From contig JAJZOZ010000002.1 of assembly GCA_021811405.1 (NCBI GenBank), positions 1 through 59,978 of the forward strand: a DNA stretch of 59,978 nucleotides, read 5' to 3'. The notes beneath the pieces were generated by a model. That model worked only from the letters and a program-made list of their open reading frames with translations, made no database searches and was not told the DNA's origin. The translations under genes were made by a program, and so were the position numbers. Positions within the stretch are counted from its first letter, which is position 1. Each line of letters opens with the position of its first letter. This DNA comes from a bacterium. Lineage in GTDB: Bacteria > Elusimicrobiota > Elusimicrobia > Elusimicrobiales > UBA9959. Positions 15,097 through 54,370 of the stretch are shown in pieces.

Positions 15097-16632
15097 TCAG
15101 TTCTTGACCGCGAGAGCGTAATGCGAGCTGAGCGGCACGGCGCCGGTAAGCTCGCAGACCCCTCCATCGCAGCCCCCCTTCTCCGCCGGCACCCGTCTCC
15201 ACCCCGAAGAGGTCATATAGAACAGCCAGGGTTCCCCGTAATTGACGGCTGGCTCCAGGAAACGGAAGGTCATGGATATATCCCCGCTGACGCCGGCAAA
15301 GCCCGAGCCCAGCTGCCAGGCCGCCAGAGGAGTGAAGCCCTTGGGAAGGGACGAGCGCAGGCCCGGCGGCAGGGCGCCTTCCAGCACCTCCAGCCGCTGC
15401 TCCGCGCCTCCGCGCTGCCTGGTCCTGAATTCCATGGCGCTCAGGGCCGCCTGCCCCGAGACGGCCTTCACGGCGAACTCCGCGCTGAGATTGGAGATCT
15501 TCACCGGCCGGCGCGTGACCTCGTAGTTAAGCGTCGCCCCCTCGACCCTCTCCGCCGCGGGTTCGGCCCCGGTCGGAGGCTTGGGCGCCGCCTTTGGCGG
15601 CACCCCGAACCTGAAGGCCAGCGAGACGCGGTGGGCCGAACCCAGGTCGCCGAACGGGGAGAAAGCATAGTCGAAGCTGAACTGGTCGTAGACAAAGCCG
15701 AGGCCTGCGGAAAAACCGGACCAGGCGCCCAGTTCGTTGCCGTGCTGCCGGTAGCGGTAGCCGGTTCTGAGCGCCAGGCCGCCCGGCAACGGGTGTTCCA
15801 AACCCACCGCCAGCGACGGGTAATTGTCTATCGGCTTGACCAGGTCAGCGGAGAGCAGCAATCCCTTCTGATATATCCGGTGGGAGATGCCGGCCCTGAA
15901 GGTCAGCGGCAGGTCGAAACTCCGGGAGACGAACTTTATTCCAGGCCCGAAGTTCTGCACCGCGAAGCCGGCGGTGAACTGCCTGTCCAGCCAGTTGAAA
16001 TCGCAAAGCGCGCCGAGGTCCAGCGCGACGGTGTTGCCGGCTTCGTTGTCTATGCTCTGGCGGATGAACTTGAGGGCCGCGCCAAGGCGCAGGTCCTGGC
16101 CGTAGCTGAAGCCGTAGGCGGCGGAGAAGGCCATGTCGTAGGCGCTGAACTTCCCCTCCACCGGCGAGATCGGGACCAGCGGGTCGGCCTCGTTGAGGCC
16201 GCTGCGCCTCTCCATGTCCTTCGGCGTGTAGAAATAATCCAGGCCCAGGCCCAGCGTGCCGCGCGCCAGCGGGCCGCTCTTGAACAGACCCGTCTCCTCG
16301 CCTGGCAGCGTGAAGCCGAAATACTCCTGGCCAAGCCCCTGGAAGTAGTCGTTATGCGTGAAGACCAGCGTCTTGCCCGGGCCCAGCGCCAGGCCGGCAG
16401 GGTTCCAGTAGACGGCGTAGGCGTCGTCGGAAAGCGCGGTATAGGCCCCGGCCATAGCGGAGGGGCGGGCGCCCACCCCTATCTTCAGAAAGGCGGCGGA
16501 GGTGGTGCCGGCGGAAGGGTAGATCCTGGCCGCGCGGGAATCCGCGGCCGCTGCGCAGAGGCAGACAGCCGCCAGCAGCGCGGCGGCCGCCAGCCCCGTC
16601 CTCTTCGATTCGCTTTCTCTCGGCATATCCAT
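15097..16632 (-). CDS. PorV/PorQ-like outer-membrane beta-barrel protein with an extra C-terminal domain of about 165 aa
   Basis: 511 aa with a signal peptide. The N-terminal signature SAAFLKIGVGARPSAMAGAYTALSDDAYAVYWNPAGLA is typical of the PorV/PorQ (FadL-like) family. The barrel shows an alternating beta-strand pattern ending ..SAHRVSLAFRF, followed by an uncharacterised domain. Confidence 0.72.
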   Translation of the reverse strand: MDMPRESESKRTGLAAAALLAAVCLCAAAADSRAARIYPSAGTTSAAFLKIGVGARPSAMAGAYTALSDDAYAVYWNPAGLALGPGKTLVFTHNDYFQGLGQEYFGFTLPGEETGLFKSGPLARGTLGLGLDYFYTPKDMERRSGLNEADPLVPISPVEGKFSAYDMAFSAAYGFSYGQDLRLGAALKFIRQSIDNEAGNTVALDLGALCDFNWLDRQFTAGFAVQNFGPGIKFVSRSFDLPLTFRAGISHRIYQKGLLLSADLVKPIDNYPSLAVGLEHPLPGGLALRTGYRYRQHGNELGAWSGFSAGLGFVYDQFSFDYAFSPFGDLGSAHRVSLAFRFGVPPKAAPKPPTGAEPAAERVEGATLNYEVTRRPVKISNLSAEFAVKAVSGQAALSAMEFRTRQRGGAEQRLEVLEGALPPGLRSSLPKGFTPLAAWQLGSGFAGVSGDISMTFRFLEPAVNYGEPWLFYMTSSGWRRVPAEKGGCDGGVCELTGAVPLSSHYALAVKN

Positions 16633-16647
16633 CCCCTGGTCCTTCCC

Positions 16648-19600
16648 TTAATGTACTATGGCGAGCTTCTTGGTGACCGACTTGGTGCCCGACGGGCTCC
16701 TGGCCTCCAGTCGGTACACGTATACCCCGCTGGCCACGTTCGCCACGCGCCAGACGATCTCCGAGGTGACGCCGCCGGGGCAGGAGTCCTTGGCCAGCCT
16801 GGCCACCTTCTCGCCGGCCACGTTGTAGACGTCTATGGTCACGTCGGCGTTGTCAGCCGGCAGGAACCTGAACGTCAGCGTGTCGCCGCGGGCCGGGTTC
16901 GGGTAGGTATAGACCCTGTCGGAGGTGAGCAGCGCCCCGGAAGGCACGTAGCCGAACAGCGAATACACGGAGAAATGCTTCACCTCGGCGCTGACCTTGT
17001 GCTGTTCCGGCAGCGCCTTGGACGTGTTCATCAGCACCCAGCGCGAACCGTCCAGCAGGTAGACGCGCAGGCTGGCCGCCGGGACGGAAGCCGTCTCGGC
17101 GTCCGTGTAAGGAAGATATATGACCGCCGGCTTCAGCAGCCTGGTGGACGGGTTCTCGAACTTCACCTCGTAGACTATCCCTGTCGGCCTGGCGCCGCCG
17201 GTGTCCGCCTTAACCCGCGCCGAGGCGCCGAAATACTCCGCCTGGTCCAGCCGCGTCATCAGCAGATTGTCGTTCTGCGAGGCGCCGTCGCCGGGTATGC
17301 TCACCTCGGCGCCGTCGGCCAGGCGCACCGAGCCGCCGTTGGACTTGTCGAAGAACCGCCAGTTGTCGGCCGAGATGCCGGAGGCCTCGGCCGTAGCGGT
17401 GGAAAGGTTGGTACTGTCGAACGCCGCCACGGCATAATAGAACTTGAGGTTCGCCGGGGCGGACGTGTCGGCATAGACCGCCGTACCGGCGCCCGCCTCG
17501 GCGTAGGGAGAGGTGGATACCTGCACACCGGAATGCAGGGCCCTGAAGACCTTGTAGCCGTAGACGTCGCCGGCCCCGGCGCCGTCGTCCGCGGAGCGGG
17601 TCCAGGAAAGCGTCAGCGCGCCGCCGTGGTCGCCCGGCCTGTCCGCCACCGTCAGGCCGCCAGGCGCCCCGGGCGCGACAAGGTCGCGCGTGGCCGCGGC
17701 GAAAGCGGTCGAGGAGGGGACGGAGTAATTCGAGTTCGGATCGTAGGCTTCAATGGAGAAATAGTACGTCACGCCGCCGAAGAGACCGCGCACGGTCTCG
17801 GCCTCGCCGGTGCCGTAGGGTCCCGAAACGGCGCGGGTGCTCTTCCAGACCCGGCCAGAGGCCCAGCCGAAAGAGGGATAGGTGGCGTAGCGCATCTCGT
17901 AGCCTGCTGCCGAGCCGACGTCCCCGTCGCCCCCCGGCGCCGTCCAGGACAGGTCCACGGAACCGCCGGCCGCGCCCGGCGCCGCGGCCAGGCCGTGCGG
18001 CGCCGAAGGCGGCACCGCGTCGGAGGAGGGATTGTCGTTGACGGAGAAAGCGGAGGCGTGCGGCGAATCCGCCGACTCATCGTAGCCGTCGAAGGCGCGG
18101 ACCGCGTAAGCGAAGGTCGAGCCGGTCACGGCGGTCGCGTCCAGATAGCTCACGGCCGGGGTGCTGACGCTGGCCAGATAGGAGAATTCCCCTCCGGAAG
18201 GCGCGCGATAGACGTTATAGGCCGTTACCCATGACGAAGAGGAAGCGGTCCAGACAATCGCGATCCTGTTGCCGCTGTCCCCGGGGTTATCCGCGGCGGA
18301 CAGCGAGGCGGGCGGCTGAGGCGCGTGGTTGACGCGCGCCGTCAGCGTGGCACGCGGCAGCGAGCCGGACGGGGATGACTCGGAAGCCGTGAGGCGCAGC
18401 GTGTATAGTCCGTTAGCCAGCCCCGAGACGTCCCAGGAGCCGAGCTGGCCTCCCGACACCTCCGAGGAGGCCGTAGTGGAGACCAGCGTGGTCCACGAGG
18501 CGGGATTCTCCCCCTGCCCGTACTCCAGCAGGTAGCCGGAAAGGGCCGGGTTGCGCAGCCAGCCCCGCACCGGCACCGTGCCGTCCACCACCTGGTAGGG
18601 CGCCGGGGAGGAGATGGAGGCGGCGAGGGCGGCCTTGAAGCCCAGAACGGTCCCGCCCATGGTGCCGGCGTAGACCCAGCCGTTCGAGACGGCCGGGGAG
18701 GTATAGACCGACGAAGAGACCGCCAGGGACTGCAGTACGGCGCCGGAAGAGCTGACGGCCAGCATCCTGGCGTCCACCGTGCCCAGATACATCACGCCGT
18801 TGGCCATCGAGGGCGACGAGAGCACCCCGAAGGCCAGCGTGCCGCCGGCGGACGGGGAGCTGAAGGCCAGGTCGGAGAGCGAATACGGGTCGAAGGCGTA
18901 GATATGGTGCGGGCGCGAGCCGGCCCCGGCGAACACGCCGTACGGAGAGATCACGGGGGCGGTCACCTCGTTCTCGCTGGCCTGGCCGACGAGCTTGGCG
19001 AACGGGGCGCTCTCGGCGGCCTGATTGCCGTCGGCGGCCGAAAAGCGCAGCAGCCTCCTCTCGTCGTGGCCCGGCAGGGCGTAAACGGACCCGCTGCTGA
19101 CCGGCAGCGCTCCGCTGCCGAAGCTCCCCATGGTCTGTTGCGTGCCGGTGAAGGTCCAGGCCGGCTGGCCCGTGTCCTTGTCCAGCGCGTAGACCCTCCC
19201 CCCGTTGGAGCCGAAATATACCGTGCGGCCGTCCGTGGACGGGGCCGATTCCACCGGCTGCGGCCTCAGCGCCGCGTACTGCCAGAGCGGGGCGCCGGTG
19301 GCGGCGTCGAAGGCCTTCAGCATGTTCTGCGGGGCCCCGACGCCAACGTACACATTGCCGTCCAGCACCAGCGGGCTGGAGATAGACGGCCCGCCGAGAG
19401 CGGCGTTCCAGAGGACGCCGCCGGTCAGCCTGTCCAGCGCGTAGAGATGCCCGTCCCTCGACGGCACGTACACCGTCCCGCTGGACACGGTCGGGGAGGC
19501 GTCCACCCAGTCGTTGGTGGAATAGTCCCAGATGAGCTCGCCTGTGTACGCGTTCAGCGCGTAGACGCTGCCGGAGCGCGCGGCCGCGTAGACCATTCCG

Positions 19601-19800
19601 CCGCTTGCCACCGGGCCGGCCACCACGTCGCCCTGAACCTGGAACTCCCACATCTGCGCCAGCGGCGGATAGGCCTGCTCCGGCAGATAGCCGGTGCGGG
19701 CCCGGTCGGCCCTGAACATCGGCCAGTCGGCCGCGGAAACGTTATCCGCCGGCAGGGGCGGCAAGCCCGCCCATAGAAAAGCGCAAATAAGCCATTTCAT
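16648..19800 (-). CDS. Secreted PQQ-like beta-propeller / FN3 x3 protein with a T9SS-type (Por_Secre_tail / FlgD-Ig-like) C-terminal domain
   Basis: ATG 19800 (MKWLICAFLWAGLPPLPA) is preferred over TTG 19824. BamB/PQQ-like repeats are present (WPMFRADRARTGY, VYAAARSGSVYALNAYTGELIW, GHLYALDRLTGGVLW, GRVYALDKDTGQPAW). Three FN3-like units follow (..IAIVWTAS.., ..VDLSWTAPGGDGD..YEMRY.., ..LTLSWTRS..YKVFR). The C-terminus is YPNPARGDTLTFRF..VTIDVYNVAGEKVARL..SGVYVYRLEA..KKLAIVH. Confidence 0.85.
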   Translation of the reverse strand: MKWLICAFLWAGLPPLPADNVSAADWPMFRADRARTGYLPEQAYPPLAQMWEFQVQGDVVAGPVASGGMVYAAARSGSVYALNAYTGELIWDYSTNDWVDASPTVSSGTVYVPSRDGHLYALDRLTGGVLWNAALGGPSISSPLVLDGNVYVGVGAPQNMLKAFDAATGAPLWQYAALRPQPVESAPSTDGRTVYFGSNGGRVYALDKDTGQPAWTFTGTQQTMGSFGSGALPVSSGSVYALPGHDERRLLRFSAADGNQAAESAPFAKLVGQASENEVTAPVISPYGVFAGAGSRPHHIYAFDPYSLSDLAFSSPSAGGTLAFGVLSSPSMANGVMYLGTVDARMLAVSSSGAVLQSLAVSSSVYTSPAVSNGWVYAGTMGGTVLGFKAALAASISSPAPYQVVDGTVPVRGWLRNPALSGYLLEYGQGENPASWTTLVSTTASSEVSGGQLGSWDVSGLANGLYTLRLTASESSPSGSLPRATLTARVNHAPQPPASLSAADNPGDSGNRIAIVWTASSSSWVTAYNVYRAPSGGEFSYLASVSTPAVSYLDATAVTGSTFAYAVRAFDGYDESADSPHASAFSVNDNPSSDAVPPSAPHGLAAAPGAAGGSVDLSWTAPGGDGDVGSAAGYEMRYATYPSFGWASGRVWKSTRAVSGPYGTGEAETVRGLFGGVTYYFSIEAYDPNSNYSVPSSTAFAAATRDLVAPGAPGGLTVADRPGDHGGALTLSWTRSADDGAGAGDVYGYKVFRALHSGVQVSTSPYAEAGAGTAVYADTSAPANLKFYYAVAAFDSTNLSTATAEASGISADNWRFFDKSNGGSVRLADGAEVSIPGDGASQNDNLLMTRLDQAEYFGASARVKADTGGARPTGIVYEVKFENPSTRLLKPAVIYLPYTDAETASVPAASLRVYLLDGSRWVLMNTSKALPEQHKVSAEVKHFSVYSLFGYVPSGALLTSDRVYTYPNPARGDTLTFRFLPADNADVTIDVYNVAGEKVARLAKDSCPGGVTSEIVWRVANVASGVYVYRLEARSPSGTKSVTKKLAIVH
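16651..16905 (-). other. T9SS type A sorting-domain-like C-terminal domain (approximate bounds)
   Basis: The last ~85 aa of the 1,050-aa protein match the Por_Secre_tail pattern: YPNP...(V/I)YD/N..G..V......SG.Y.......KK(L/I)..(V/I). Confidence 0.6.
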
Positions 19801-19843
19801 AATTAGCGTTCCTAAAAACAACAATACCGCCGCGCGGACGCGG

Positions 19844-22800
19844 TCAGGGACCGATGCTCAGCACGTAGGTCTTCCCGTCCGAAGACCCGACTATCAGTGT
19901 CAGGCTGCCGGTGTCTATCACGGGATCGGCGCGCACCGGACCGCCGGTGGGCACGGGCCAGCCGGTCCTCAGCTGGCCCGTATTCACGTTCACCGCGTAG
20001 ATATAGCCATCGTCGCAGCCGAAGTAGGCGTAATCCTCTCCGGCGGGCAGACCCAGCCACGTCCCGGGGATCACCACCGGCGAGGAGCGTATCGGTCCGC
20101 CCGCCTGGAAGCTCATGATCTCCGTGCCGCTGGCCGCGTCCACCTTGTAGAACCGGCCGGCGTCGTTGCCGAAATAGACGTACTTGCCGGTATCGAGGTC
20201 CTTGAAAGGCGACGTGTAGATCGGGGACCCGGAGGGGAAGTCGGCCCAGCCCGACGGCTGAGTGGTCAGGTTGGCCGAGGTCCTGGCGTAGAGCTTGCCG
20301 TCGGTGGAGGTTATATAGAGGTTGTTGCCTCCGAGGTAGGCGGCGTCGGCGAACGGCGAGGACTTGATGGCGGCTCCGGTCTGGAACCAGCTGGAGATGG
20401 CGCCCGAAGCGGTAAGGAAGCGCACCACCTTGCCGTCCTCCAGGCCTATCCAGGAGGCGTTCACGCCCGGCGTGCGGTCGTCCAGCGCCAGCGTGCCGGA
20501 GATGGCGGCGGTGAAGCCGGCGTCGTAGGTCCAGCCGAGGCAGTCGGAGCCGTCGGCCTTGTTGAGGCAGTAGACCCTGTTGTCGGCGGCGCCGAAATAG
20601 AGCTTGGCGCTGGAATCTATCGGATTGGAGACCACCGAGACCCCGAGGGGGCGCTTCCAGATCTGCTGCGAGGAGGCGTCGTTGTCCCTGATCTTGTAGA
20701 TGTCGCCGGCCACGTCCGCGAAGTAAAGGTATACGCCGCCGGACTCCTCGCGCGCCATCGGGGAGGTCTTCACGGAACTGAGCGGGAAGGTCAGGAAATC
20801 CCACTTGGAAGTGCCGTCCAGCCTCAGCCCGCGCAGCGTGCCGTCCAGTCCCGGCACGTAGACGGCCGACTGCACCAGGCCGCCGGTGTAGTAGTCTACG
20901 GGCGCCGTCACTCCGGCCTGCGTGCCCGCGTCGAACGGCCAGAAGGTGCCCGCGGGCGGCTTGGCGGACACTATGATGACCGTGGAGGAGGTCTGCACCG
21001 CCGCGCCTGCCGCGGGCGCCTGCGGCTCGGCGCTGGGGACGTCGGTCAGCACCAGGTCCGTGGAGGGATCGAAGCTTACGCGGAACGCGTTGGGCGTCTG
21101 CGTGGAGGCGTACTGCGCGGCGGTGAAGACCACGAAGTAGGCCGCCGTGGAGGCGGCGGGCGTCCAGGCCGCGGCGGCCGGCGGCACCGGCAGCAGCAGC
21201 GTTCCGGAGGCGTCCAGCGTGATGCCGGAGTTCGGCAGCGAGGCGGTCACCTGGGTATCCAGTCCCGACTCGTAGAGGCCGCTGGTGCCTCCGGCCGAGT
21301 CCTTCACCAGGGAAACGCCGGAGAAGAGGCTCCTGGCCTGGGCGGTGTTCAGCGGAACGAGACCGGGGTCCAGCAAACGCACGGTGACGCTCGCCAGCGC
21401 CACCGAATTACGCCCGGAGAGGCTCGTATCGTCCACCCTGATGGCGACCATCGAGCCCGAATAGCCCTCGCCCAGCCTCAGCGGCGCGGTGGGCGCGGCG
21501 CTGACGGAATGCACGGCGGCGTCGTAGGTCACGCCCGCGCGTACCACGGGCGGGGCGGAGACCGCCCCGTTATCGGTGTTCAGGACGAGCTTGTACGCCG
21601 CACCGTCCGAGAGGCCGCGGCCGTCCTGATCGTAGAAGGATATCCCCAGCTGCGAGGTGGACTGGGCGGCCAGCGAGGCCGGGGCGAAGCCGATGTCGGC
21701 CAGCCGGTAGAGATGCGGCGAGTAGTTGTCCGCCGCGCCGCCGGTGCGCGTAAGCACCAGGTAGTTGCCGGTCCCGGCCGAGGAATCGGCGCCGAGGGTC
21801 AGCCGCAGCGGGAACCGGCGCGGCAGTATCTGCGAGGCCGCGGGATAGGCCAGCGTATTCGCCGCTCCCTGGCCGGCGCCGTTGTTGCGCGAGGCCGGCG
21901 TGGCGGAAGCGGAAGCCGCGAAGTCGGCGGCGTTGCTGCCGGTGTCGGACCCCTCCGAAGGGCTCCTGCCTATGGAGCCGGACGCGTTGGCCGGCGCCCA
22001 GGCCGCGGCGCTGACCAGGGCGGACTTGTAGTTGCGCAGCGAGTAATTAGCGCCGGACTGCCAGGTCACCCGGTCCACGGTCTGCCCGGCCGCGTTCTCC
22101 AGCGCCGCGAAGTCCCCGGCGGCGTTCAGGCCGGAGGCGCCGAACACCGACGCGTAGGGCAGGGCCTCGTCGCTGAGGGAGGAGGCGTCTATCAGCGCGT
22201 AGGAACGGGCGTAGATCTTCCTGGTGAACCTGAAGCGGCCGTTGTACGAGCCGCGCAGGTAATAGCCGGCCAGCGCGGGCGTGGAGGCGCCGGTATTGTA
22301 GAGTTCTATGAACTGGTCCGCTAGGGCGCCGTAGGCCACCTCGTTTATCTTGACCGGATCGGTGGTTATCGCGTTGGCGTAGCCTTTCGTGGGCGTGGGG
22401 TCGGCGTCGAAGTAGTCGGCGTTGCCGTCGGTGACGCGCGCGAACGAGCGGCCGGACTGCAGCGCGGGCCACTGCACCCTGTCCACCACGTTGCCGCCGG
22501 AGTCCTTCAGGATCAGGTGATAGCTCTGCGCGCCGTTGAGGTCCAGCGACGGGGCGGCCGCGAAGAAGCCGTTGACGTTGACCGTATCCACGCTGGTACC
22601 GGTCCAGACCGTGGTCTCAAGTCCCGGCAGGTCTATGGAGCCCTGATCGTAGACCAGTTTCCAGCCGGTCAGGGTTATCGTGGAGGCGGTGTTGTTGAAG
22701 AGCTCCACCCAGTCCTCGGCCGCGGTGGCGCCGGCCGCGTAGACCTCGTTGATATAAAGATTGGCCGTCTGCGGCGGCGAGGAGGCCTGGTTGGACAACG

Positions 22801-25800
22801 GCGAGACGTTATTGGCCTTGTCGGTGGTCTTCACCGCGAAATAATAGGTCTTGCCCACGTCCAGGCCGTAGAGCACGCGCTGCTCCGGCTGGCCGGCCGC
22901 CGCCGGCGCCCAGGCCTGCGCGTAGGTGCTGGCCGCGCTGAACAGCGCGTCCGTGATTATCTGGAAGGTGGCCAGCTTGACCGTGTAGTAGCCGCCCGTA
23001 TTGTCCGTAACCGCGCCGTCGTCCCCGGGGGCCGTCCAGGACAGGCTCACCGAACCGCGCACCGGTCCGGGGGCCGCGGCCAGGCCCGTTATCGCGGCCG
23101 GCGGCTGCGTGTCCTTGAGTATCCGGAACGCGTCGACCAGCGTGGTGGTGCTGGAGGCGTTGTCCATGGCGCGCACGCTGATATAGTTGGTGCCGTGGCC
23201 CAGCAGCGAGAAGTTCAGCGCCCAGTTGGACGTGTAGATGGAGCCCAGAGTGCCGGAGGAAATGACGGTCCAGCCCAGCGTCTGGATGCCGGTCCGGTTG
23301 GGACCGCTGGAGGCCGAGTACTCCAGGCTGCTCAGGCCGGAGCCGCCGGTATCCGCGAAGTCCACGTCGTACACCGCGCCCTGCGCGGCGTTGCGCCAGG
23401 CCCCGTCGTAGCCGGCGGCCAGGTTATTGGTGACCGTGGGCGGCGCCGTGTCCTTCTTCACGTAGAAGGCGTCCGTGATGACGGGAGAGCTGTTGCCTGC
23501 GCTGTCGCGCGCCCTGACCGTCACGTAGCTGATCCCCTGCGGCAGCAGGTCCCACGTGCCCTGCGCGAACTGCCAGTCGGCGGTGTAGGAATCGGCGTTG
23601 ATCCCGGATACCTGGTCGGTCCAGTCCTGTACCAGCGCGCCGCCGCCGGCGGGCTGCGAGAGCACCCTGGTCTGCACCGAGGCCAGGTGCGAGCCGCCGG
23701 AATCCGTCGCGTCGATGTTATAGAAGACGCGGGAATTGCGCCAGGAATCGTCGCCGGCCTGGTTGTCTATCACGGTAGGCGGCACCGGGTCCTGCCTGTC
23801 GAACGCGATGCCGGCCGGCTCGTAGCTGAAGTCGGACACGGTGTTGGTATGCTGGAAGTTGGACGAGGCCGCGGTGCCGGCCCACGAAGTGCCGCCCCAC
23901 AGCGTGGTTTTCAGGTTCCCGGAGATATCCATCCCCAGCGCGGTGATCTTGTTGGTGTTCGGGTCCGGGTACAGCGCCAGCAGCCTGATGTCGTTGGCGA
24001 AGGTGGTATTGGTATTGGCGGTGGTCACCGACGGGCTGGCCGGCGTCCACGTGCCGCCCGACCAGGTTATGTAATCGAACTGCGTGTCGAAATTGCCGAT
24101 ATTGTCCACGGCGGCCGCCAGGAACCTGCCCGACTGGGATTCCCAGGCGGCGTCCGTGATGCGGCCGAGATTGGAGGACATGGAGGTGTCCGCCGCCGGG
24201 GAGGCGCTCCAGGCCTCGGTGCCGAGGGTGGACTGCCAGATGGAGACGTACCAGCCGGGCGACACGGTCATGATGCTGGCGCCGAGGCGGTTAGTGGTCG
24301 GGTCGGCAGCGACGCGCAGCCAGTAGACCGAAGTGGAGCCCACCGCGGGACCGGCCGGGGTGGCCGCGTCCCACGTGGACGAGGCGGAGCGCCAGATCTT
24401 GTAGGCCGTGGCGGTGCCGGCACCCCACAGCGCCACGGCGTTGCCGCTCTGGCTCTCCCAGCCGCCGTCGAAGCACTCCGTGGTCGCCATGGACGCCGCG
24501 GTGGTCAGGTTCTGCACCGAGGTCCAGGCGGAACCGGTCCAGACCGCGGCCGTGAGGCGGCCGTTGGCGTCCAGGGCCATCAGCAGCACCCTGTCGGTCC
24601 CCGGCATGGCCTTAAGCCGCACCCAGTTGACGTCGCCGGTCAGGCCGGTCAGCACGAGCGGCGCGGGCGCGCCGGCCCAGACGGAGGCGGTAGCGGACCA
24701 CACGGCGTAGGAGACGGTCCCGAGCGTACCGTTGTTATACACCGCCAGCATCCTGCCGGTCAGGCTTTCAGGGGCCAGGTCGAACTTGCGCGTGGCGGAG
24801 CCGCCGGGCGCCGGCGCGGGCGAAGGCGTGATGTCGCTCCACGCCGAGGCGAGCCCGTCCCACTTCAGCAGCTTCAGGCTGTTGTCGGAGGCCAGGAAAC
24901 CGCCTATCTTGGCGTTGGCGACTACCGGGACGGACTTCAGCACCGCCCAGCGCACCGTGGCGCCAGTGACCAGCGAACCGCCCTGCGCGCCCCAGATATC
25001 GGGCGTCCAGTTCCGGTAGACCGGGATATTGGACGCGCCGGAACCGTAAACTATCATGCCGGCGGCGGCCCCCGCCGGCGTGGCGCTGGAGACGGGAACG
25101 TTGGAGATGGGACCAACGTTGCCGGCCTCGTCCACGGCCTTTACGGCTATGGAATAAGTGGCGCCGGGAGTGAGGCCGTCCAGCACGCGGATCTCGGGCA
25201 GGCCGTAGGCCGCCGGCGACCAGGTCTGCGTATAGGTGGAGACCGCGGGCGAGGCGAAGTTGGCCCCGGTGATGAGGAACGGCGCGTAGCGCACGATGTA
25301 GGACGTCGCCGTACCGGCGTTGGCGACGCCCTTGACGCCCTCGCCCGGGGCCGTCCAGGTAAGGGATATCTGACCCTGGAAATCGGCCATTACGGCGGCC
25401 AGGTCGGCGATGGCCCCCGGCGGCGTGGTGTCCGTGCCTGCGTAGGAAGAGGTCGGGTTGCTCAGCGGCCCGGAGTTGCCGGCCTTGTCCACGGCCTCCA
25501 CGGCGAGATAGTAGGTGGCGCCGGCGGTGAAGCCGCTCAGGACCAGGCCTTCCGGCGAGCCGGCGGCCTTCGGGACCAGCGTGGAGACGTAGACGGCGGC
25601 CGCGTCGAAGTCGGCCTGGCCGGTGAAGGCGGAACCGGTCTTGTAGCGGATCATGTAATAGCTGGCGCTGCCGGTCAGGTCGCTGTCGCCGGGGGCGGTC
25701 CAGGACGCGTCGATGCCGCCCTCGCCGGCCTGGCCGGCGGAGGGAACGGCGGTCAGCGTGGTTATGGCCGACGGCGGCACCGTATCCTTGAGGATGTAGA

Positions 25801-28800
25801 ACACGTCCACCGAGGTGGAGGAGTGGCCGAGCGCGTCCCAGGCGGTCACGGTGATGTAGTTAGTGCCCGGCGCCAGCAGCGCCCAGTCCGCGCCGTAAAC
25901 GCCCCAGTTCTGGGTATAGGCCGGGAGGGGAGCCCCGGAGAATATCGGCGTGGAAGGCGCGACCTGCGCGCCCGTGCGCCCCGGCCCGGTCCAGGCCTCG
26001 TAGGCGGCCGTGGACACGCCTATGCCGGAGTCGGAGAAGTCCACGTCGAACACCGGGCCGGGGTTGGCCTTGTACCAGGTGGTGTCGCCGTCCTGCAGGT
26101 CGGCCACCGACGGGGGAGAGGTGTCCTTGCGCACGTAGAAGACGTCGGAGGCCGCGCCCATGTTCCCGGCCACGTCCCACGCCCGCACAGAAACGTAGTT
26201 GTAGCCTTCGGCCAGCGCCGCGAAGTCCACGGCCCAGTCCGAGGTGGAGAGCACGGTGCGGCTGGAGAAGAGCTGGGTCCAGCCCTTGACCTGCGCGCCG
26301 GTAAGGCCGGGGCCGGTCCAGGCGGAATAAGCCGCGCTGGAGAGCAGCGAGCCGTAGTCGGCGAAGTCCACGTCGTAGAGCGTGCCGGCGGCGGTGCGCC
26401 AGACGCCGTCGCCCGCCTGGTTGCCGGTGACGGCGGGCGGCGTGGTATCCTTCAGCACGCGGAACGCGTCGGTGATCGTGTAGGTGCTGCCGGCGCCGTC
26501 GAAGACCATCACCGAGACGTAGTTGGTGGCGCTGTCGTAGAGCGAGTTCCAGACGCCCAGCGACAGCGGCCAGTCCACCGGGTAGGAGGCCAGGCCGATG
26601 CCCGTTATGTTGTCGGTCCAGTCGAAGGCCTGTATGCCGGTGCCGCCGGGGCCGGTGCTGGCCTTAAGCTGGAACTTCGACACCAGCGAGCCGCCGGTGT
26701 CGGCGAAGTGGACGCTGTAGACGCCGCCGTTGGAATTGCGCCAGGAGAACTCCCCGCTCTGGAGGTTCTGCGCGGTGGGCGGCGTGGTGTCCTTCTTCAC
26801 GTAGAAGGCGTCCTTGAGCACGGCGGTGGAGCCCGCCACGTCCCACGCGCGCACCGAGACGTAGTTGGTCACGCCTTCCCTGAGCGCGGCGAAATCCAGC
26901 GGCCAGTCGGCCGAATACAGGGCGCCGGAGGGCCCGGCTATTGCGGTCCAGCCCTTCACGCCGCCGTCGGCGGAGGCCGGCGCGGTGCTGGCGCTGTACT
27001 CCAGGGCGGCCAGGCCGCTCATCGGGTCGGCGAAGTCCAGGTTGTAGGCCCTGCCGGCGCTGCGCCAGGCGGCGTCCCCGCCGGCCTCCCCGTTGACGAA
27101 GGCCGGCGGCGTGGTGTCCTTCAGGATGAAGAACGGCTGGAAGCCGAACGTGGCCGAGCTCTGCGCGTTGTCCCAGACGCGCACCGAGATGTAGCTGGTG
27201 CCTTCGCCCAGCAGGTCCCACAGGGTCTGCGGCAGCGGCCAGTCCGCCGTGTAGGAAGCGGCGTTAATGCCGGTGACGGCGTCGCTCCAGTCGAAGTACC
27301 ACGGTCCCAGCGTGCCGGCGTTGTAGGAGGCCCGGGCCTGGACTTTCGAGAGGTTCGAGCCGCCGGTATCGGCGAGATCGATGTTGTAGACGGTACCGGA
27401 GCTGTTGCGCCAGTAGGAGTCCCCGGCCTGGTTGTCCGCGAGCGAGGGCGGCGTGGTGTCCTTGAACACCCTGAAGGCGTCGGCCACGGTGGAGGTGTTG
27501 CCGGCCACGTCGTAGGCGCTCAGCGAGACGTAGTTGGTCGCGCCCTCGGCCAGCAGGCTGAAGGAAGAGGGCGGTATCGCGAAGTCCGTTGTATATGAGG
27601 CCGCGCCTATGCCCGTCTGTATGGGAGTCCAGTCGAAGAGGTACGGGCCGGCGCCCGGCACGGTGGAGACCCGCAGCTCGAAACCGGAGAGCAGGGAGCC
27701 GCCGGCGTCGGCGAAGTCCACGTTATACAGCGCGCCGGGGCCGTTGCGCCAGCTCAGGTCGCCGCCCGCGATATTATTGGTCACCTGCGGCGCCACGGTG
27801 TCCTTCTTCACGTAGAACACGTCGGCGAGCTCCGCGAAGAGGCCGGCCTGGTTGTAGGCCCGCACCGACACGTAGTTGGACTGCCCGCTGAGCATAGCGT
27901 CGAAGACGGGTGCGGGCAGGCCCCAGTCCGCCGTATACGTGTAGGCGTTGAGGCCGCTCACCGCTGCGGTCCAGCCGGAGGTGAAGGGCCCCAGGTTGCC
28001 GGGCAGCGTGGAGGAGCGCACCTCGAAACGGTCCAGCGGCGAGCCGCCCAGCGCCTGGGCGTCCACGTCGTAGAGCGCGTTGCCGGAGGAGCGCCAGACG
28101 TCGTCTCCGAGCTGGTTGTCGGTCAGCGTGACGGTCCGGGTGTCCTTCCTGATATGGAACGCGCCGGCCAGCGCGGCCGAGGAGCCGGCGGTGTCGAAGA
28201 CGCGCACGGAGATGTAGGAGGTGCCGGGGCCCAGCAGGTCCCACAGCTGGGAGGTGAGCTGCCAGTCGGCGGTATAGCTCTGCGCGTTGATGGCGGATAC
28301 GAGCGTGGTCCAGTCGAACAGCGGCGTGCCGGCGCCGGCCGCGTCGGTGGTGGCCTTCACCTGGAAGTGGTCCACGCCGGAGCCGCCGGCGTCGGCGAAG
28401 TCCACGTTGTAGACGCCGGTGTTGGCGCCGCGCCATACGTAGTCCCCGGCCTGGTTGTTCTGCACCGACGGCGGCGTGGTGTCCTTGCGCACCACGAAAA
28501 CGTCCGCCTGCTGGGCGGAATTGCCGGCGCCGTCGTAGACCCTCACGCTGACGTAATTCTGGCCCTCGCCCAGAACGGCGAAATCCGGGCCCCAGAGCTG
28601 GTTGTAATAGGTGGCGTTAATGGCCAGCACCCGGTCGGTCCAGTCCTGCGCCAGCGTGCCGGTGCCGGCCGGCCCCGACGTGATGCGCGTCTGGAAGCGG
28701 TCCAGCCTGGAGCCGCCCAGGTCGGAGAAGCCCACGTTGTAAACGGCGCCGGGGTCGGAGGCGTGCCAGAGGTTGTCGGCGGGCTGGTTGTTCAGTATGG

Positions 28801-31800
28801 CCGGGTTCGTCACGTCCTTGAGGACGTAGAAGACGTCCGCGAGCTCGCGGCTGCTGCCCAGCACGTCGAAGGCGCGCACGCTGACGTAGTTGGTGGCGCC
28901 CTCCGCCAGCGCGAAGAAGTCCACCCCCCAGTTCGCCGTGTACGAGGCGATCCCGGTGGACGAGAAGATGCCGGTCCAGTTCTTCAGGAGCGTGCCGCCG
29001 CCGGCCGGGGCGGAAGTGATGCGGTACTGCGCGGTGGCCAGGCCGGAGCCGAGGTCGGAGAAGTCGACGTCGTAGACGGCGCCGGAGGCGCGGCGCCACG
29101 TAGTGTCCCCCGCCTGGTTGTCCGCGATGGCGGGGGCGGAAGTGTCCTTTCTTATCACGAAGGCGTCCACGGCCTTCGAGGAGAAGTCCACCCGGTTGAA
29201 CGCCCGGACGCTGACGTAGTTCTGTCCCTCCCGGAGCGCGGCGAAGTCCACCGGCCAGGCCGCGCTGTAGCCGGCGGACCCGGAGGGCGTGGAGAAGATA
29301 TCGGTCCAGTCCTTCACGAGCGTCCCGCCTTCCGCCGGCGCCGCGGTGATCCTGTACTGGCCGGTGGTCAGGCCGGAGACCAGGTCCTGGAAGCTCACGT
29401 TGAACACGGCGCCCGGGTCCGAGAGGTACCACGGCGTGGGGGAGGCCTGGCCGTTGGTTATCGTGGGGCTGGAGGTGGCCGCCGTGAAGGAGCGGGTGGA
29501 GGACCAGGCCGCGTAGTTGCCTGCCGCGTCCCCGGCGCGGACCCGCCAGAAATACGCGCCGCCGGCCAGTCCGGAGACAGAGGCGGAAGCGGCGGCTGTC
29601 ACGGAACTGGCGCTGACCTGGGCGAACTCCTGCGAAGTGGAGAGCTGCAGCTCGTAGGCGGAGACCCCGGACCGCAGGTCCGAGGAGGCCGTCCAGGCGA
29701 AGGAAACCGCGCCCGTGGAGAACAGCGCCCCGTCGGCCGGGGACGACTGGCTCACGGCGGCGGGCGGCGTGGTGTCCTTGAGGACGTAGAAGGCGTCGGC
29801 GGAGGCCGAGCTCTGCGCCAGCTCGTCAAAGGCGCGCACGCTGACAAAGCCGGTGGTCCATTCCTGCAGCGCGGAGAAGTCGACGGGCCAGTCTGCCGTG
29901 TACGAGGCCGCCCCGGTGGGATAGGCGATGTCGGTCCAGTCCTTCAGCACCGCCCCGGCGCCGGCCGGCAGCGTCGTGATCCGGTACTGCGCCGTGGAGA
30001 GCCCCGAGAGGGGATCGAAGAAATCCACGTTGTAGGTCTTGCCGGCCGCGTTCTGCCACGCGGCGTCGCCCGCCTGGTTCAGGCCGAGGGACGGCGGCAC
30101 GGTGTCTTTCAGCACGTAGAAAGCGTTGCCCAGGGTGGAAGAACTGGGCAGCAGGTCGAAGACCGCCAGCGAGACGTAATTCCTGCCCGGCGCCAGCGCG
30201 TCGAACACGGCCTGGGGCAGGGACCAGTCCGCGGTATAGACCGTGGAGCCTATGTTATAGGCCGCGCTGGTCCACGCCACCAGGTAGGAGGGCGCCGCGG
30301 CGGAGGTGGCGGCCGTCACCTGGAAGTAATCCAGGTTGAAGCCGGACTCCGCCTGGAAGTCCACGTTGTAAAGCCCCGTATTGGCCGCGCGCCAGGCGTT
30401 ATCCCCCGCCTGGCCGTTGATTATCAGCGGGCCGGAACCCTCCTTGTAGACGCTGAAGACGTCGTTATAATACGAAACCCCTCCGGCGTTGTCGTAGACG
30501 CGCGCGCTGACGTAGGAAACGGCCAGGTTGGGCAGCGCCATATAATTGACCGGCCAGTCCGCGAGGTAGTCGGCGGCGTTGATGCCGGCGGCTATGTCGG
30601 TCCAGGTCACCACCTCGCCCCCGGTGCGCCCGGGCTGCGTCCAGACGGCGTACTGCGCCTTCGAGAGCAGCGAGCCGCCGGTATCGTGGAAGTCCACGTT
30701 CATCGCGTTCACGTCGGCCTGGCTCCGGGCCAGGGCTATGTCGGCCTGGTTATCCGAGGCCGTGGGCGGCGTGGTGTCCTTCCTGACGTAGAAAACGTCC
30801 GCCAGCAGCGAGGACTGCGCGAGCCTGTCGTAGGCGCGCACCGTGACGTAGCTGGCGCCTTCCGGCAGCAGGCTCCAGGAGGCGGCGGAAAGGCCCCAGT
30901 TGGCGCTGTAGGTGGAGACCGCCAGGCCGCTGGCGACGTCCGTCCAGTCGGCCAGCAGGGTGCCGCCCTGCGCCGGCTGCGAGGTGATCCGGTACTGTAT
31001 CGTGGCCACGCCGGAATAGAGGTCCAGGAAATCCACGTCGTAAACGGCCCCGGGGTTGGCGGCGCGCCAGACGTCGTCCCCGGCCTGGTTGTCCAGCATG
31101 GCCGGGGCGGAAGTGTCCTTCAGCACGTTGAAGACGTCGGAGCGGGTGGCGGTGGAGCCGGCCGCGTCCCAGGCCCGCGCGGAGATATAGTTGGTCCCGG
31201 CGGCCAGCAGGGAGAAGTTCACGCTCCACGGGCCCGGATAGGCCAGCCGCGGCGTGCCGGAGGAAATGACTGTCCACGGGACGGAATTGGAGCCGGTCTG
31301 GCCGGGTCCCGTCCAGGCGGAGTACTGCATGGTGTCCAGGCCAGTCATGTCGTCGGAGAAAGGCACGTTGTATACCGCGCCCGGGTCCGAATTGCGCCAG
31401 TTCGTCTCTCCGGGCTGGCTGTCGGTGACCACGGGAGCGACAGTGTCCGCCAGCACCCTGTAATAGGCGCTGTAGCCGGAATAGTTGCCGGCGTTGTCCC
31501 TGGCCCTGGCCTGCCAGTACCAGGTGGCCCCGGAAGGCAGCGCCGCGGCCTGCTGGGACGCGGCGGGCGCGGCCGAATAGGCCACGGGCGAGAAGGAGGC
31601 CGAGGTGGCCGCGCGCAGCTCGTAGCCGGCTATGCCGGAGGAGCCGTCGGAGGAATCCGTCCAGTCCAGCAGCGGGGAAAGGGTAGCGCGAGGGGCGAGG
31701 TCGGCGGGCGAAACGGCCGCGGGAGCGGAAGGCGGAGTGGTATCCTTCATGACGTAGAAGGCGTCGTCGAGCTCGGCGGAGTTGCCGGCGTTGTCGTAGA

Positions 31801-48052: not shown

Positions 48053-48063
48053 ACCCGTTAAAT

Positions 48064-48474: not shown

Positions 48475-48540
48475 AAGAAAGCTCCGGCGCCTTACAAGCT
48501 GTATCGCCGCTACGCGGCTGTTTTATTCCAGCGACCAACA

Positions 48541-50023: not shown

Positions 50024-50025
50024 CC

Positions 50026-50160
50026 TCAGGAGAACTTCTTGAGGGTCTTGCAGGCCAGCTGGCTGATGGGGCCGCTCGTGCATTTGCCGCAGGCCAGCGC
50101 GGCCTTCTCGAAGACCTTCTCGGTCTTGATGGAGGGCTTTTCGTATTTTTTCTTTTTCAT
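50026..50160 (-). CDS. Unannotated 44-aa candidate RiPP precursor peptide
   Basis: My translation is MKKKKYEKPSIKTEKVFEKAALACGKCTSGPISQLACKTLKKFS*. AGGA lies about 8 nt upstream. It is below the size cut-off of the ORF track. It is flanked by PqqD (19 nt upstream) and the peptidase-like gene (2 nt downstream). Confidence 0.6.
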   Translation of the reverse strand: MKKKKYEKPSIKTEKVFEKAALACGKCTSGPISQLACKTLKKFS

Positions 50161-50179
50161 ATGTGGTCCTGAAATATGG

Positions 50180-54363: not shown

Positions 54364-54370
54364 ATTCCGG

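What the first reader, a model, noticed from the sequence alone, without database searches (positions are those of the whole stretch)
15097..19800. Propeller/FN3 protein with a T9SS-type sorting domain paired with a PorV/PorQ-like barrel, with no T9SS core genes in view
Seen: the 1,050-aa protein ends in a Por_Secre_tail-like domain (YPNP...VTIDVYNVAGEKV...SGVYVYRLEA...KKLAIVH). The next gene, 15 nt downstream, starts with the PorV/PorQ signature SAAFLKIGVGARPSAMAGAYTALSDDAYAVYWNPAGLA. That gene also carries an unusual extra C-terminal domain of ~165 aa (about 15097..15600). Established: in Bacteroidota, PorV binds CTD-bearing cargo and shuttles it for surface attachment. Inference: this is a dedicated cargo-shuttle pair placed directly after the giant gene, possibly an outer-membrane anchor or partner for it. 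No PorK/L/M/N/SprA-type genes are present in this window.
Basis: partly seen in the sequence, partly recalled or inferred. Interest (0 to 1): 0.65.

Follow-up and report, generated by a model that had tools for sequence, protein, structure and literature searches.

The report
CTD protein with dedicated PorV-like barrel
In an Elusimicrobia genome, a large surface-type protein with a type IX secretion sorting tail sits next to its own PorV-like outer-membrane barrel and a giant adhesin-like gene; the same pairing recurs in many phyla not known to have that secretion system.

Summary
Window 16648-19800(-) encodes a 1,050-aa PQQ-type propeller/FN3 protein. It ends in a type-A T9SS C-terminal domain (CTD) that scores above the curated cut-offs. 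Fifteen nt downstream, 15097-16632(-) encodes a PorV/PorQ-family barrel (NF033709 164.8 bits, cut-off 90). Its best solved-structure match is PorV, not FadL. It also has an extra 150-aa beta-sandwich domain that is predicted to be periplasmic and is specific to this family.

The contig is from Elusimicrobia. The order giant gene, then CTD protein, then barrel is conserved in 6 of 6 relatives that could be evaluated. Among the 79 closest barrel loci from many phyla, 60 have a CTD-bearing gene immediately upstream.

My best reading is a cognate CTD-barrel surface-anchoring pair. It would work like PorZ-PorQ, PorU-PorV or SprB-SprF, and probably serves the giant protein.

No T9SS core gene was found in the window or in the neighbours I scanned. 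Whether the whole genome lacks T9SS could not be tested. Binding, surface location and the export route are all inferred.

Verdict: a new variant of a known kind, of moderate interest.

The parts
15097..16632 (-). PorV/PorQ-family outer-membrane barrel gene (511 aa, including signal peptide)
   Evidence: NF033709 164.8 bits (cut-off 90) and PF19572 29.4 bits (cut-off 27). All 60 aligned family members hit NF033709. A profile search of solved structures finds PorV 6h3i_F at E 2e-15. The AF2 model has pLDDT 88, and its best Foldseek hit is PorV at E 2.3e-11, TM 0.65, ahead of FadL/TodX at ~1e-7.
15607..16506 (-). N-terminal plug-like segment plus 14-stranded barrel (residues 43-342)
   Evidence: This is the extent of the NF033709 match. 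DSSP on the AF2 model shows 14 long strands between residues 88 and 341. The motif FLK..GAR...G.A....D....WNPAGL is invariant in the family and aligns to PorV.
15100..15546 (-). Family-specific C-terminal beta-sandwich domain (residues ~363-511), after a Pro/Ala-rich linker; predicted to be periplasmic
   Evidence: The domain is conserved (alignment A2). It has no Pfam hit and no PDB sequence hit. The AF2 model has pLDDT 91.5 and is all-beta. Foldseek gives only weak ZU5-like matches at E ~0.03. In 1.84 billion representative proteins, the full-length domain is found only at the C-terminus of this barrel family. The periplasmic side is inferred from the even strand number and the loop/turn lengths.
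16633..16647 (-). 15-nt spacer with a Shine-Dalgarno-like GGAAGGA between the CTD-protein gene and the barrel gene
   Evidence: Read directly from the sequence.
16648..19800 (-). 1,050-aa secreted propeller/FN3 protein with a type-A T9SS CTD (the ORF extends to a TTG at 19824; the likely start is the ATG at 19800)
   Evidence: Domain hits are. About 96 full-length orthologues were found, all in Elusimicrobia, on the same contigs as the barrel orthologues (one search compared).
18625..19653 (-). PQQ/BamB-like beta-propeller (ORF residues ~58-400)
   Evidence: PF13360 148 bits in three stretches. The BamB equivalogs score far below their cut-offs. PDB hits are PQQ-type propellers and BamB.
17395..18327 (-). 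FN3-type repeats (ORF residues ~500-810)
   Evidence: PF00041 29.7 bits at residues 607-704. An Fn3-like PDB hit covers residues 493-581.
16954..17328 (-). Conserved ~125-aa pre-CTD domain ending in ...VKHFSVYSLFGY
   Evidence: An HMM built from the orthologues finds this domain directly before the CTD in 43 ORFs across the fetched loci. It has no Pfam hit.
16651..16905 (-). Type-A T9SS C-terminal sorting domain (ORF residues 974-1058)
   Evidence: PF18962 37.2 bits (cut-off 27) and TIGR04183 32.7 bits (cut-off 23). The CTD portions of the NF052323 and PorU models also match. There is no CHU_C (type B) hit.
19801..19843 (-). 43-nt spacer after the giant gene, with a 5-bp GC hairpin, a T-rich tail (weak terminator or attenuator-like) and an AGGAA ribosome-binding site
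   Evidence: The count of terminator-like sites is not above the shuffled controls, so this is a weak feature.
19844..48052 (-). Giant secreted protein (~9,400 aa from the probable ATG; the ORF runs to 48538) with Ig-like, FN3 and lamin-tail domains and a C-terminal PQQ-type propeller; no CTD
   Evidence: My CTD HMM finds nothing in it. A giant ORF runs into the partner gene in 6 of 6 evaluable syntenic loci. Its C-terminal propeller is weakly similar to the partner's propeller (BLASTP E 3e-6).

Best explanation
This is a cognate cargo-barrel surface-anchoring module.

The 1,050-aa propeller/FN3 protein is exported by Sec and crosses the outer membrane by a route not identified here. It is then held on the cell surface because its uncleaved type-A-like CTD docks non-covalently onto the extracellular face of the dedicated 14-stranded PorV/PorQ-family barrel encoded 15 nt downstream. 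Known precedents are the retained CTDs of PorZ and PorU, which stay bound to PorQ and PorV, and type-B CTD proteins, which stay bound to PorP/SprF barrels.

The barrel's fused C-terminal beta-sandwich lies in the periplasm. There it probably tethers or positions the complex, a role played in trans by PorE for PorP.

The pair is fixed immediately after a ~9,400-aa Ig/FN3/LTD/propeller protein that has no CTD of its own. The anchored propeller protein is therefore most likely an accessory (adaptor or anchor) for that giant surface protein.

Shown: domain identities, homology and fold similarity to PorV, conserved three-gene synteny, and widespread CTD-gene/barrel-gene adjacency.

Inferred: physical CTD-barrel binding, surface location, CTD retention, periplasmic placement and role of the extra domain, and the functional link to the giant protein.
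For: - **Family assignments above curated cut-offs.** The barrel passes NF033709 and PF19572; the CTD passes PF18962 and TIGR04183. All 60 family members hit PorV_fam, then PorQ, PorV2 and PorV in that order.
- **The barrel resembles PorV more than FadL.** A PDB profile search hits PorV at E 2e-15. Foldseek gives PorV at E 2.3e-11, TM 0.65, against FadL/TodX at ~1e-7, TM 0.43-0.5.
- **Synteny.** The order giant gene, then ~1,055-aa propeller/CTD protein, then ~505-aa barrel is conserved at 46-70% identity in L001, L003, L005, L007, L084 and L085. In the four of these for which flanking gene calls were returned (L001, L003, L084, L085), it sits in the same housekeeping neighbourhood. The two orthologue lists share many contigs.
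- **General rule.** 60 of the 79 closest barrel loci have a CTD ORF ending less than 400 nt upstream on the same strand, and 5 more have one within a few kb. The phyla include Elusimicrobia, Cloacimonadota, Eisenbacteria, Zixibacteria, Poribacteria, WOR-3, Desantisbacteria, Aerophobetes, Sumerlaeota and Acidobacteriota. Of 58 such C-termini, Pfam matches FlgD_ig in 37, CHU_C in 33 and Por_Secre_tail in 28.
- **Tight coupling.** The spacer is 15 nt and carries an SD-like site.
- **Published precedent for cognate CTD-barrel anchoring.** PMC10202324 and PMC9143113.
- **No sortase next door.** None of the 8 upstream partners tested, nor the window protein itself, is a PorU sortase; only their CTDs match.
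Against: - There is no direct evidence of binding, localisation or CTD retention.
- The barrel is below the equivalog cut-offs for PorV, PorQ and PorV2, so function cannot be transferred by orthology.
- The outer-membrane export route is unknown. A 14-stranded barrel cannot itself pass a folded 1,000-aa protein.
- The loci surveyed were chosen as the closest relatives of this barrel, so the 76% adjacency describes this subfamily, not all PorV-like genes.
- My CTD HMM was built iteratively from the same loci. It was checked with Pfam, but only per family, not per sequence.
- The link to the giant protein rests on synteny and a weak propeller-propeller similarity.
- The weak hairpin between the giant gene and the pair may mean they are separate transcription units.
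Confidence: 0.55

Rival explanations
1. This is an ordinary T9SS cargo plus a cargo-specific PorV paralogue. The genome would encode a SprA/Sov-type translocon and a PorK/L/M/N-type machine elsewhere. The barrel would collect this one cargo from the translocon, as proposed for SprF with SprB. The locus would then be just a peripheral module of a canonical T9SS that has spread beyond the Bacteroidota.
For: - The CTD and the barrel are both true members of T9SS-associated families.
- T9SS genes are normally scattered around the genome, so their absence from a 60-kb window says little.
- Several phyla in the survey (Gemmatimonadetes, Ignavibacteria, Calditrichota, Cloacimonadota, Zixibacteria) belong to the FCB group, where reviews place the T9SS (abstracts).
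Against: - No T9SS core gene was found in the window or among the 18 neighbour proteins scanned in related loci.
- TXSScan found T9SS only in Bacteroidetes among 1,528 diderm genomes (PMC4793230).
- No paper in the library links Elusimicrobia with T9SS components.
- One barrel per cargo is not the canonical type-A arrangement, in which one PorV serves many cargos.
Confidence: 0.25
2. This is a self-contained two-gene export-and-display system that does not depend on a T9SS. The CTD would target the protein to its own barrel. Translocation would use another machine: BAM-assisted as in type V systems, the abundant type II/type IV-pilus-like systems of Elusimicrobia, or an Oar-like TonB-dependent transporter. 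The CTD/FadL-type barrel pair would be the ancestral unit from which the T9SS attachment complex was later built.
For: - The one-to-one gene pairing is widespread in phyla outside the FCB group.
- No conserved third partner was found across the loci.
- Oar-like TonB-dependent receptors occur in 12 of the 79 loci, and ExbB/ExbD/TonB genes occur beside the pair in Cloacimonadota loci. An Oar-type transporter is needed to secrete PopC in Myxococcus (PMC6434023, abstract listed).
- Pseudopilin genes lie upstream in the window.
Against: - The argument rests on not finding T9SS genes in partial data.
- No mechanism is known for such export.
- The neighbouring TonB-dependent receptor and pilin genes are not universal.
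Confidence: 0.12
3. The barrel is a FadL-type channel for hydrophobic small molecules, or a BamG-like BAM accessory platform. Under this reading its position next to the CTD protein reflects co-regulation only.
For: - FadL, TodX and BamG appear among the structural hits (E 1e-7 to 3e-5).
- There are weak UPF0164 and Toluene_X hits.
- BamG is a FadL-family barrel that serves as a platform for a surface lipoprotein encoded in the same operon (PMC12578637).
- The partner has a BamB-like propeller, and JGI names it BamB.
Against: - Toluene_X scores 14 bits against a cut-off of 29.7.
- PorV is the best hit both by sequence profile and by fold.
- The BamB equivalogs score far below their cut-offs (117.7 against 285).
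- The partner carries a CTD and FN3 domains, unlike BamB.
- Adjacency to a CTD gene in 60 of 79 loci, despite otherwise unrelated cargo domains, points to the CTD as the shared feature.
Confidence: 0.06

Closest known systems
PorZ-PorQ and PorU-PorV sub-complexes of the Porphyromonas gingivalis T9SS attachment complex
   Same: In both cases a CTD-bearing surface protein is held on a 14-stranded FadL-family barrel of the PorV/PorQ family through a retained type-A CTD. From my own knowledge, PorZ is also a beta-propeller protein plus a CTD. The barrel here scores best on the PorQ model among the equivalogs (81 bits). The retained-CTD paradigm is described in PMC10202324.
   Different: - The barrel is not orthologous to PorQ or PorV: PorQ scores 81 against a cut-off of 220, and PorV 62 against 250.
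- The partner has no hit to the PorZ model and matches the PorU model only over its CTD.
- The two genes are adjacent here.
- The barrel carries a fused periplasmic domain.
- The host is an Elusimicrobia bacterium with no T9SS core detected in view.
Type-B CTD protein/PorP-SprF pairs (SprB-SprF in Flavobacterium johnsoniae; PG1035-PorP-PorE in P. gingivalis)
   Same: - These are cognate, often adjacent, gene pairs of a CTD protein and its own FadL-family barrel, which anchors it at the surface.
- One such pair serves a giant repetitive adhesin (SprB, 669 kDa).
- A periplasmic component (PorE) can tether the barrel to the cell wall (PMC9143113). That role is analogous to the one proposed here for the fused C-terminal domain.
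   Different: - The CTD here is type A (TIGR04183), with no CHU_C/type-B hit.
- The barrel belongs to the PorV/PorQ family, not PorP/SprF; TIGR03519 is hit by only 2 of 60 family members, and weakly.
- The giant protein itself has no CTD. A separate 1,050-aa protein carries it.
PorV of the SprA/Sov translocon (PDB 6H3I chain F)
   Same: It is the best sequence-profile match and the best structural match. It shares the conserved N-terminal FL..ARA...WNPA segment and the 14-strand barrel.
   Different: - Identity is about 20%.
- The equivalog cut-off is not met.
- No SprA or PorU is in view.
- Canonical PorV serves many cargos and has no C-terminal periplasmic domain.
BamG-BamH of the Bacteroidota BAM complex
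   Same: [quoted passage not shown]
   Different: - BamG is a much weaker structural match (E 2.6e-5, TM 0.44).
- BamH is a lipoprotein without a CTD.
- There is no evidence here of any association with BamA.

Membership tests
PorV/PorQ family (NCBIfam NF033709; Pfam PF19572) | Profile score above the curated cut-off over the whole barrel | tested here: met
   NF033709 scores 164.8 bits against a cut-off of 90, over residues 43-342 and model positions 1-326 of 326. PF19572 scores 29.4 against 27. All 60 homologues match.
PorV/PorQ family (NCBIfam NF033709; Pfam PF19572) | 14-stranded FadL-type barrel with an N-terminal plug-like segment, closest in structure to PorV | tested here: met
   The AF2 model has pLDDT 88 and 14 long strands. 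The Foldseek top hit is 6h3i_F PorV at E 2.3e-11, TM 0.65, ahead of FadL/TodX. This rests on a predicted structure, not an experimental one.
Bona fide T9SS PorV (NF033710 equivalog) | Equivalog score of at least 250 bits | tested here: not met
   62 bits.
Bona fide T9SS PorV (NF033710 equivalog) | Works with a SprA/Sov translocon and a PorU sortase | not testable with these tools
   No SprA or PorU is in the window or in the scanned neighbours.
T9SS PorQ (NF033711) with its PorZ partner (NF052228) | Equivalog scores for the barrel (at least 220) and for the partner (at least 260) | tested here: not met
   PorQ scores 81.2 bits. The window partner does not hit the PorZ model at E<=1.
T9SS type-A CTD cargo (TIGR04183 / PF18962) | CTD profile above the cut-off, located at the extreme C-terminus of a protein with an N-terminal Sec signal | tested here: met
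   TIGR04183 scores 32.7 against 23, and PF18962 scores 37.2 against 27, at residues 974-1050 of 1058. The N-terminus MKWLICAFLWAGLPPLPADNVSA looks like a signal peptide; I judged this by eye.
T9SS type-A CTD cargo (TIGR04183 / PF18962) | [quoted passage not shown] | not testable with these tools
   This needs genetics or proteomics. No RNA or protein data are available; only DNA metagenome runs hold this sequence.
Complete type IX secretion system | Presence of the core genes (SprA/Sov, PorK/L/M/N or GldK/L/M/N, PorU, PorW/SprE, PorT) | tested here: inconclusive
   None was found among the window ORFs scanned with Pfam and NCBIfam. However, 60 kb is a small part of a genome and T9SS genes are scattered. 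The whole genome was not available.
FadL/OmpP1/TodX transporters (PF03349) | Profile score above the gathering threshold | tested here: not met
   14 bits against a cut-off of 29.7. Structural matches are weaker than to PorV.
Type-B CTD / PorP-SprF pair | A CHU_C/TIGR04131-type CTD on the cargo and a TIGR03519 PorP/SprF barrel | tested here: not met
   The window CTD has no CHU_C hit at E<=1. TIGR03519 does not hit the window barrel and hits only 2 of 60 relatives.
BamB (TIGR03300) | Equivalog score of at least 285 and a ~390-aa lipoprotein architecture | tested here: not met
   117.7 bits, from the propeller repeats only, in a 1,050-aa multidomain protein.

The most novel reading that the evidence does not exclude
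Elusimicrobia and several other phyla outside the FCB group may have no SprA/PorKLMN machine at all. They would use the two-gene unit 'CTD protein plus its own PorV/PorQ-family barrel' as a free-standing surface-display system, here specialised with a periplasmic tether domain to serve a ~9,400-aa adhesin. That would make the CTD-barrel pair the ancestral core from which the Bacteroidota T9SS attachment complex evolved. It would also imply a CTD-directed outer-membrane export route that has not been described.
Probability: 0.25. Interest if true: 0.8.

Novelty: new variant of a known kind. Interest (0 to 1): 0.55.

Why it matters
The T9SS literature treats CTD signals and PorV-type barrels as parts of a machine confined to Bacteroidota or the FCB group. 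In that machine, one PorV serves many type-A cargos.

Here a type-A-like CTD protein and its own PorV/PorQ-family barrel form a fixed gene pair in Elusimicrobia. The same arrangement is the rule (60 of 79 loci) for the closest barrels in about a dozen phyla.

If the pair works as an anchor, then cognate barrel-CTD docking is a general and probably old principle of surface display in diderm bacteria, not a special case limited to PorZ-PorQ or SprB-SprF. If those genomes truly lack the translocon, the origin of the T9SS, and the way such cargo crosses the outer membrane, become questions that can be tested directly.

The finding also gives a concrete handle on how an uncultivated lineage mounts a ~9,400-aa surface protein.

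Tried and rejected
1. **Shared domain between barrel and partner.** I suspected that the barrel's C-terminal domain and the partner's pre-CTD domain (both end in a W...H[FY][SA] strand) were homologous. BLASTP gave E 0.18 and hhalign gave probability 0.4%. Rejected.
2. **HFS autoproteolysis site.** I considered the pre-CTD 'HFS' as a ZU5/GAIN-like self-cleavage site. The motif is not conserved among orthologues (SFS, SLA, HLS). Only the barrel's domain was folded, and it gave only weak ZU5-like Foldseek hits (E ~0.03). Not pursued.
3. **PorU next to PorV-like genes.** I looked for PorU sortases, or any other T9SS component, beside PorV-like genes in 18 neighbour proteins from Elusimicrobia, Cloacimonadota, Poribacteria, WOR-3, Desantisbacteria, Cytophagia, Calditrichota, Gemmatimonadetes and FCPU426. 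Only CTD-level matches appeared. As a result I had no T9SS core sequence to use as a query.
4. **A conserved third gene.** All-against-all clustering of ORFs across the loci found no universal third gene. It found only Oar-like TonB-dependent receptors (12 loci) and lineage-specific neighbours.
5. **Expression data.** Only DNA metagenome runs (mine drainage, sediment) hold the sequence.
6. **Literature.** Searches for Elusimicrobia with T9SS, SprA, PorU or Gld terms, for PorV-like or PorQ-like proteins outside Bacteroidota, and for T9SS in candidate phyla returned nothing relevant.
7. **Terminator and promoter scan around the pair.** This gave only weak, non-significant signals.


Full report
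**What is in the window**

The window has about 67% G+C. Third-codon-position G+C (GC3) singles out the real genes, and most of them are on the minus strand. Three consecutive minus-strand genes make up the finding.

- **Giant gene.** The ORF 19844-48538 probably starts at the ATG at 48052, just before a signal-peptide-like MPKAAG...LLLLCAALCASPAAA. That gives a protein of about 9,400 aa. It has Ig-like, FN3 and lamin-tail domains and a C-terminal PQQ-type propeller. It has no CTD.
- **CTD protein.** After a 43-nt spacer comes 16648-19800, encoding 1,050 aa.
- **Barrel.** After a further 15 nt containing GGAAGGA comes 15097-16632, encoding 511 aa.

Downstream lie a convergent ABC-2 transporter and then hpf, hprK, (rapZ), mannose-type PTS genes, ptsI, lepA and lepB. 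Upstream of the giant gene lie an Rrf2-like regulator, a radical-SAM/SPASM gene, several unknown genes, two prepilin-type proteins and a GT2 glycosyltransferase. No T9SS core component was detected among the ORFs scanned.

**Checking the observation**

The 1,050-aa protein has these features:
- a PQQ_2 propeller at 148 bits;
- an fn3 domain at 29.7 bits (cut-off 25);
- a C-terminal Por_Secre_tail at PF18962 37.2 bits (cut-off 27) and TIGR04183 32.7 bits (cut-off 23).

The BamB equivalogs score far below their cut-offs, and the PorU model matches only over the CTD.

The 511-aa protein scores as follows:
- 164.8 bits on NF033709 'PorV/PorQ family' (cut-off 90), over the whole model;
- 29.4 bits on PF19572 (cut-off 27);
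- only 14 bits on FadL/Toluene_X (cut-off 29.7);
- below cut-off on the PorQ, PorV2 and PorV equivalogs, with 81, 66 and 62 bits.

A profile built from 60 homologues hits F. johnsoniae PorV (6h3i_F) at E 2e-15. An AlphaFold2 model (pLDDT 88) shows 14 long strands. Its best match among solved structures is PorV (E 2.3e-11, TM 0.65), ahead of FadL, TodX and TbuX (E ~1e-7, TM 0.43-0.5) and of BamG (E 2.6e-5).

**The extra C-terminal domain**

Residues ~363-511 follow a Pro/Ala-rich linker.
- The domain is conserved in all of the more than 120 listed homologues of ~500 aa.
- It has no Pfam hit and no PDB sequence hit.
- It folds confidently as an all-beta sandwich (pLDDT 91.5).
- It has only weak ZU5-like structural neighbours (E ~0.03).

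In a search of 1.84 billion representative proteins, the full-length domain was found only at the C-terminus of this barrel family (16 hits below 1e-10). The remaining hits cover only a ~45-residue repeat-like stretch.

The barrel has an even number of strands, and the long loops and short turns alternate as expected. The domain should therefore lie on the periplasmic side. This is an inference from the model.

**Whose genome is it, and is the arrangement conserved?**

Named homologues of both proteins are almost all from Elusimicrobia or Elusimicrobiales MAGs. The sequence itself occurs in mine-drainage and sediment metagenomes.

The order giant ORF, then ~1,055-aa propeller/FN3/CTD protein, then ~505-aa barrel is kept in L001, L003, L005, L007, L084 and L085, that is, in 6 of 6 loci with enough upstream sequence. 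In the four for which flanking gene calls were returned (L001, L003, L084, L085), the triad is followed by the same convergent ABC transporter and hpf-hprK-rapZ-PTS genes. Barrel identity across these six ranges from 46 to 64%. The giant gene is 3,982-9,395 aa long in the loci where it was called.

The two orthologue lists share many contigs, including those of 698,259, 521,761, 388,812, 212,029, 188,642, 163,908 and 115,595 bp. The triad is therefore a vertically inherited chromosomal locus of this clade, not an island.

**A wider pattern**

A scan of one genome per species found 573 relatives of the barrel. I fetched the 79 best loci. They come from Elusimicrobia, Endomicrobia, Cloacimonadota, Eisenbacteria, Zixibacteria, Poribacteria, WOR-3, Desantisbacteria, Aerophobetes, Sumerlaeota, Gemmatimonadetes, Acidobacteriota, Nitrospirota, Calditrichota, Ignavibacteria and others. 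Only the three closest carry the extra C-terminal domain.

I built a CTD HMM iteratively from the window's CTD and found the following:
- In 60 of 79 loci, the ORF ending less than 400 nt upstream on the same strand has this domain at its extreme C-terminus.
- Five more loci have such a gene within a few kb or immediately downstream.

Pfam, run independently on 58 of these C-termini, matches FlgD_ig in 37, CHU_C in 33 and Por_Secre_tail in 28. The N-terminal parts of the partners are unrelated to one another (191 to more than 3,000 aa). None of the 8 tested is a PorU sortase, and only their CTDs match T9SS models. Some MAGs carry more than one such pair; L042 and L066 are one example, and L023 and L036 another.

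Clustering all neighbouring ORFs found no universal third gene. It found only Oar-like TonB-dependent receptors in 12 loci, and ExbB/ExbD/TonB genes beside the pair in Cloacimonadota loci.

**Mechanism**

Three published precedents apply:
- The CTDs of PorU and PorZ are retained and hold those proteins on PorV and PorQ. 'Cognate PorV-like barrels' have been proposed to protect CTDs from cleavage (PMC10202324).
[quoted passage not shown] This includes the 669-kDa adhesin SprB on SprF. The periplasmic protein PorE can tether PorP to peptidoglycan (PMC9143113).
- In the Bacteroidota BAM complex, a FadL-type barrel (BamG) serves as the platform for a surface lipoprotein (PMC12578637).

Against that background, a one-barrel-per-CTD gene arrangement is best explained as a stoichiometric, non-covalent anchor. 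The partner's CTD would dock on the barrel's extracellular face. The barrel's fused periplasmic domain would do in cis what PorE does in trans. The giant protein has no CTD but is invariably encoded just upstream and ends in a propeller weakly similar to the partner's (E 3e-6). The anchored propeller/FN3 protein is therefore most plausibly an adaptor or anchor for it. All of these functional steps are inferred.

**What remains open**

The outer-membrane export route is unknown, because a 14-strand barrel cannot pass a folded 1,000-aa protein. Whether these genomes encode SprA/PorKLMN could not be tested. I had access only to the 60-kb window and to +/-10 kb around related genes, and I found no T9SS core sequence to use as a query.

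TXSScan reported T9SS only in Bacteroidetes (PMC4793230). Several reviews describe it as confined to Bacteroidetes or the FCB group (abstracts). The paper library returned nothing that links Elusimicrobia to T9SS components.

Two readings therefore remain beside the anchor model itself. Either this is a peripheral module of a canonical T9SS located elsewhere in the genome, or it is a T9SS-independent display system.

**Verdict**

By family membership, these are a PorV/PorQ-family barrel and a type-A CTD protein. They are not orthologues of PorV, PorQ, PorZ, PorU, PorP or FadL. The features that differ from known systems are the fixed adjacency, the fused periplasmic domain, the association with a giant gene that lacks a CTD, and the occurrence in Elusimicrobia and other non-FCB phyla. 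Together these make it a new variant of a known kind. Interest is 0.55.

Noticed in passing
window 48064-48474 (-): A 136-aa ORF with good coding statistics ends 11 nt before the giant gene's probable ATG. By eye it looks like an Rrf2/BadM-type winged-helix regulator, so it may regulate the giant gene. The long TTG-started N-terminal extension of the giant ORF (48053-48538) is probably not translated.
   Followed up: partly
window 48667-51252 (-): A radical-SAM/SPASM protein (48667-49701) lies near a protein (50449-51252) with weak HprK-related-kinase/ScmC-like hits. Together they resemble a peptide-maturation (SCM-like) cassette, located just upstream of the giant-gene locus.
   Followed up: partly
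window 53857-56938 (-): Two proteins with prepilin-type N-terminal methylation motifs (168 aa and an unusually large 855 aa) precede two unknown proteins of 426 and 458 aa. This may be a type II/type IV-pilus-like module near the giant gene.
   Followed up: partly
L050:2758-5550 and 11 other loci; L044, L053, L074, L076: Oar-like TonB-dependent receptors (CarboxypepD_reg plus Plug plus barrel) occur near CTD/PorV-like pairs in 12 of 79 loci. In the Cloacimonadota loci, ExbB, ExbD and TonB genes sit directly upstream of the CTD protein.
   Followed up: partly
window 16954-17328 (-); 43 ORFs in the fetched loci: A conserved ~125-aa domain with no Pfam match sits directly before the CTD in many partner proteins from different phyla. 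It often ends in an HFS-like strand (...VKHFSVYSL...).
   Followed up: partly
P0033, P0038, P0098 (barrel) and P0143, P0145, P0155, P0164, P0170 (partner); L006:166-3648: Some orthologues of both genes are ~100-130 aa longer and carry a PF05635 (four-helix-bundle, 23S rRNA intervening-sequence protein) hit. This suggests that a small gene has been inserted or fused at this locus in some lineages.
   Followed up: no
L002:1-6751; L085:1-6778: In two relatives the C-terminal LTD/propeller part of the giant protein is called as a separate ORF (1,731 aa and 572 aa). This may reflect a frameshift, an assembly error, or a real split of the giant gene.
   Followed up: no
window 19830-19843 (-): A 5-bp GC hairpin followed by TATTGTTGTTTTT lies directly after the giant gene's stop codon. 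A sigma-70-like match lies at 19890-19917 inside the giant gene's 3' end. Together these hint that the CTD-protein/barrel pair may be transcribed partly on its own.
   Followed up: partly
one search hits P0254-P0295: Profile positions ~113-158 of the barrel's C-terminal domain (FY....GW...A......F.A.AP.S.HY) match 4-18 tandem stretches in many unrelated large proteins. This part of the domain therefore resembles a common beta-hairpin repeat.
   Followed up: no
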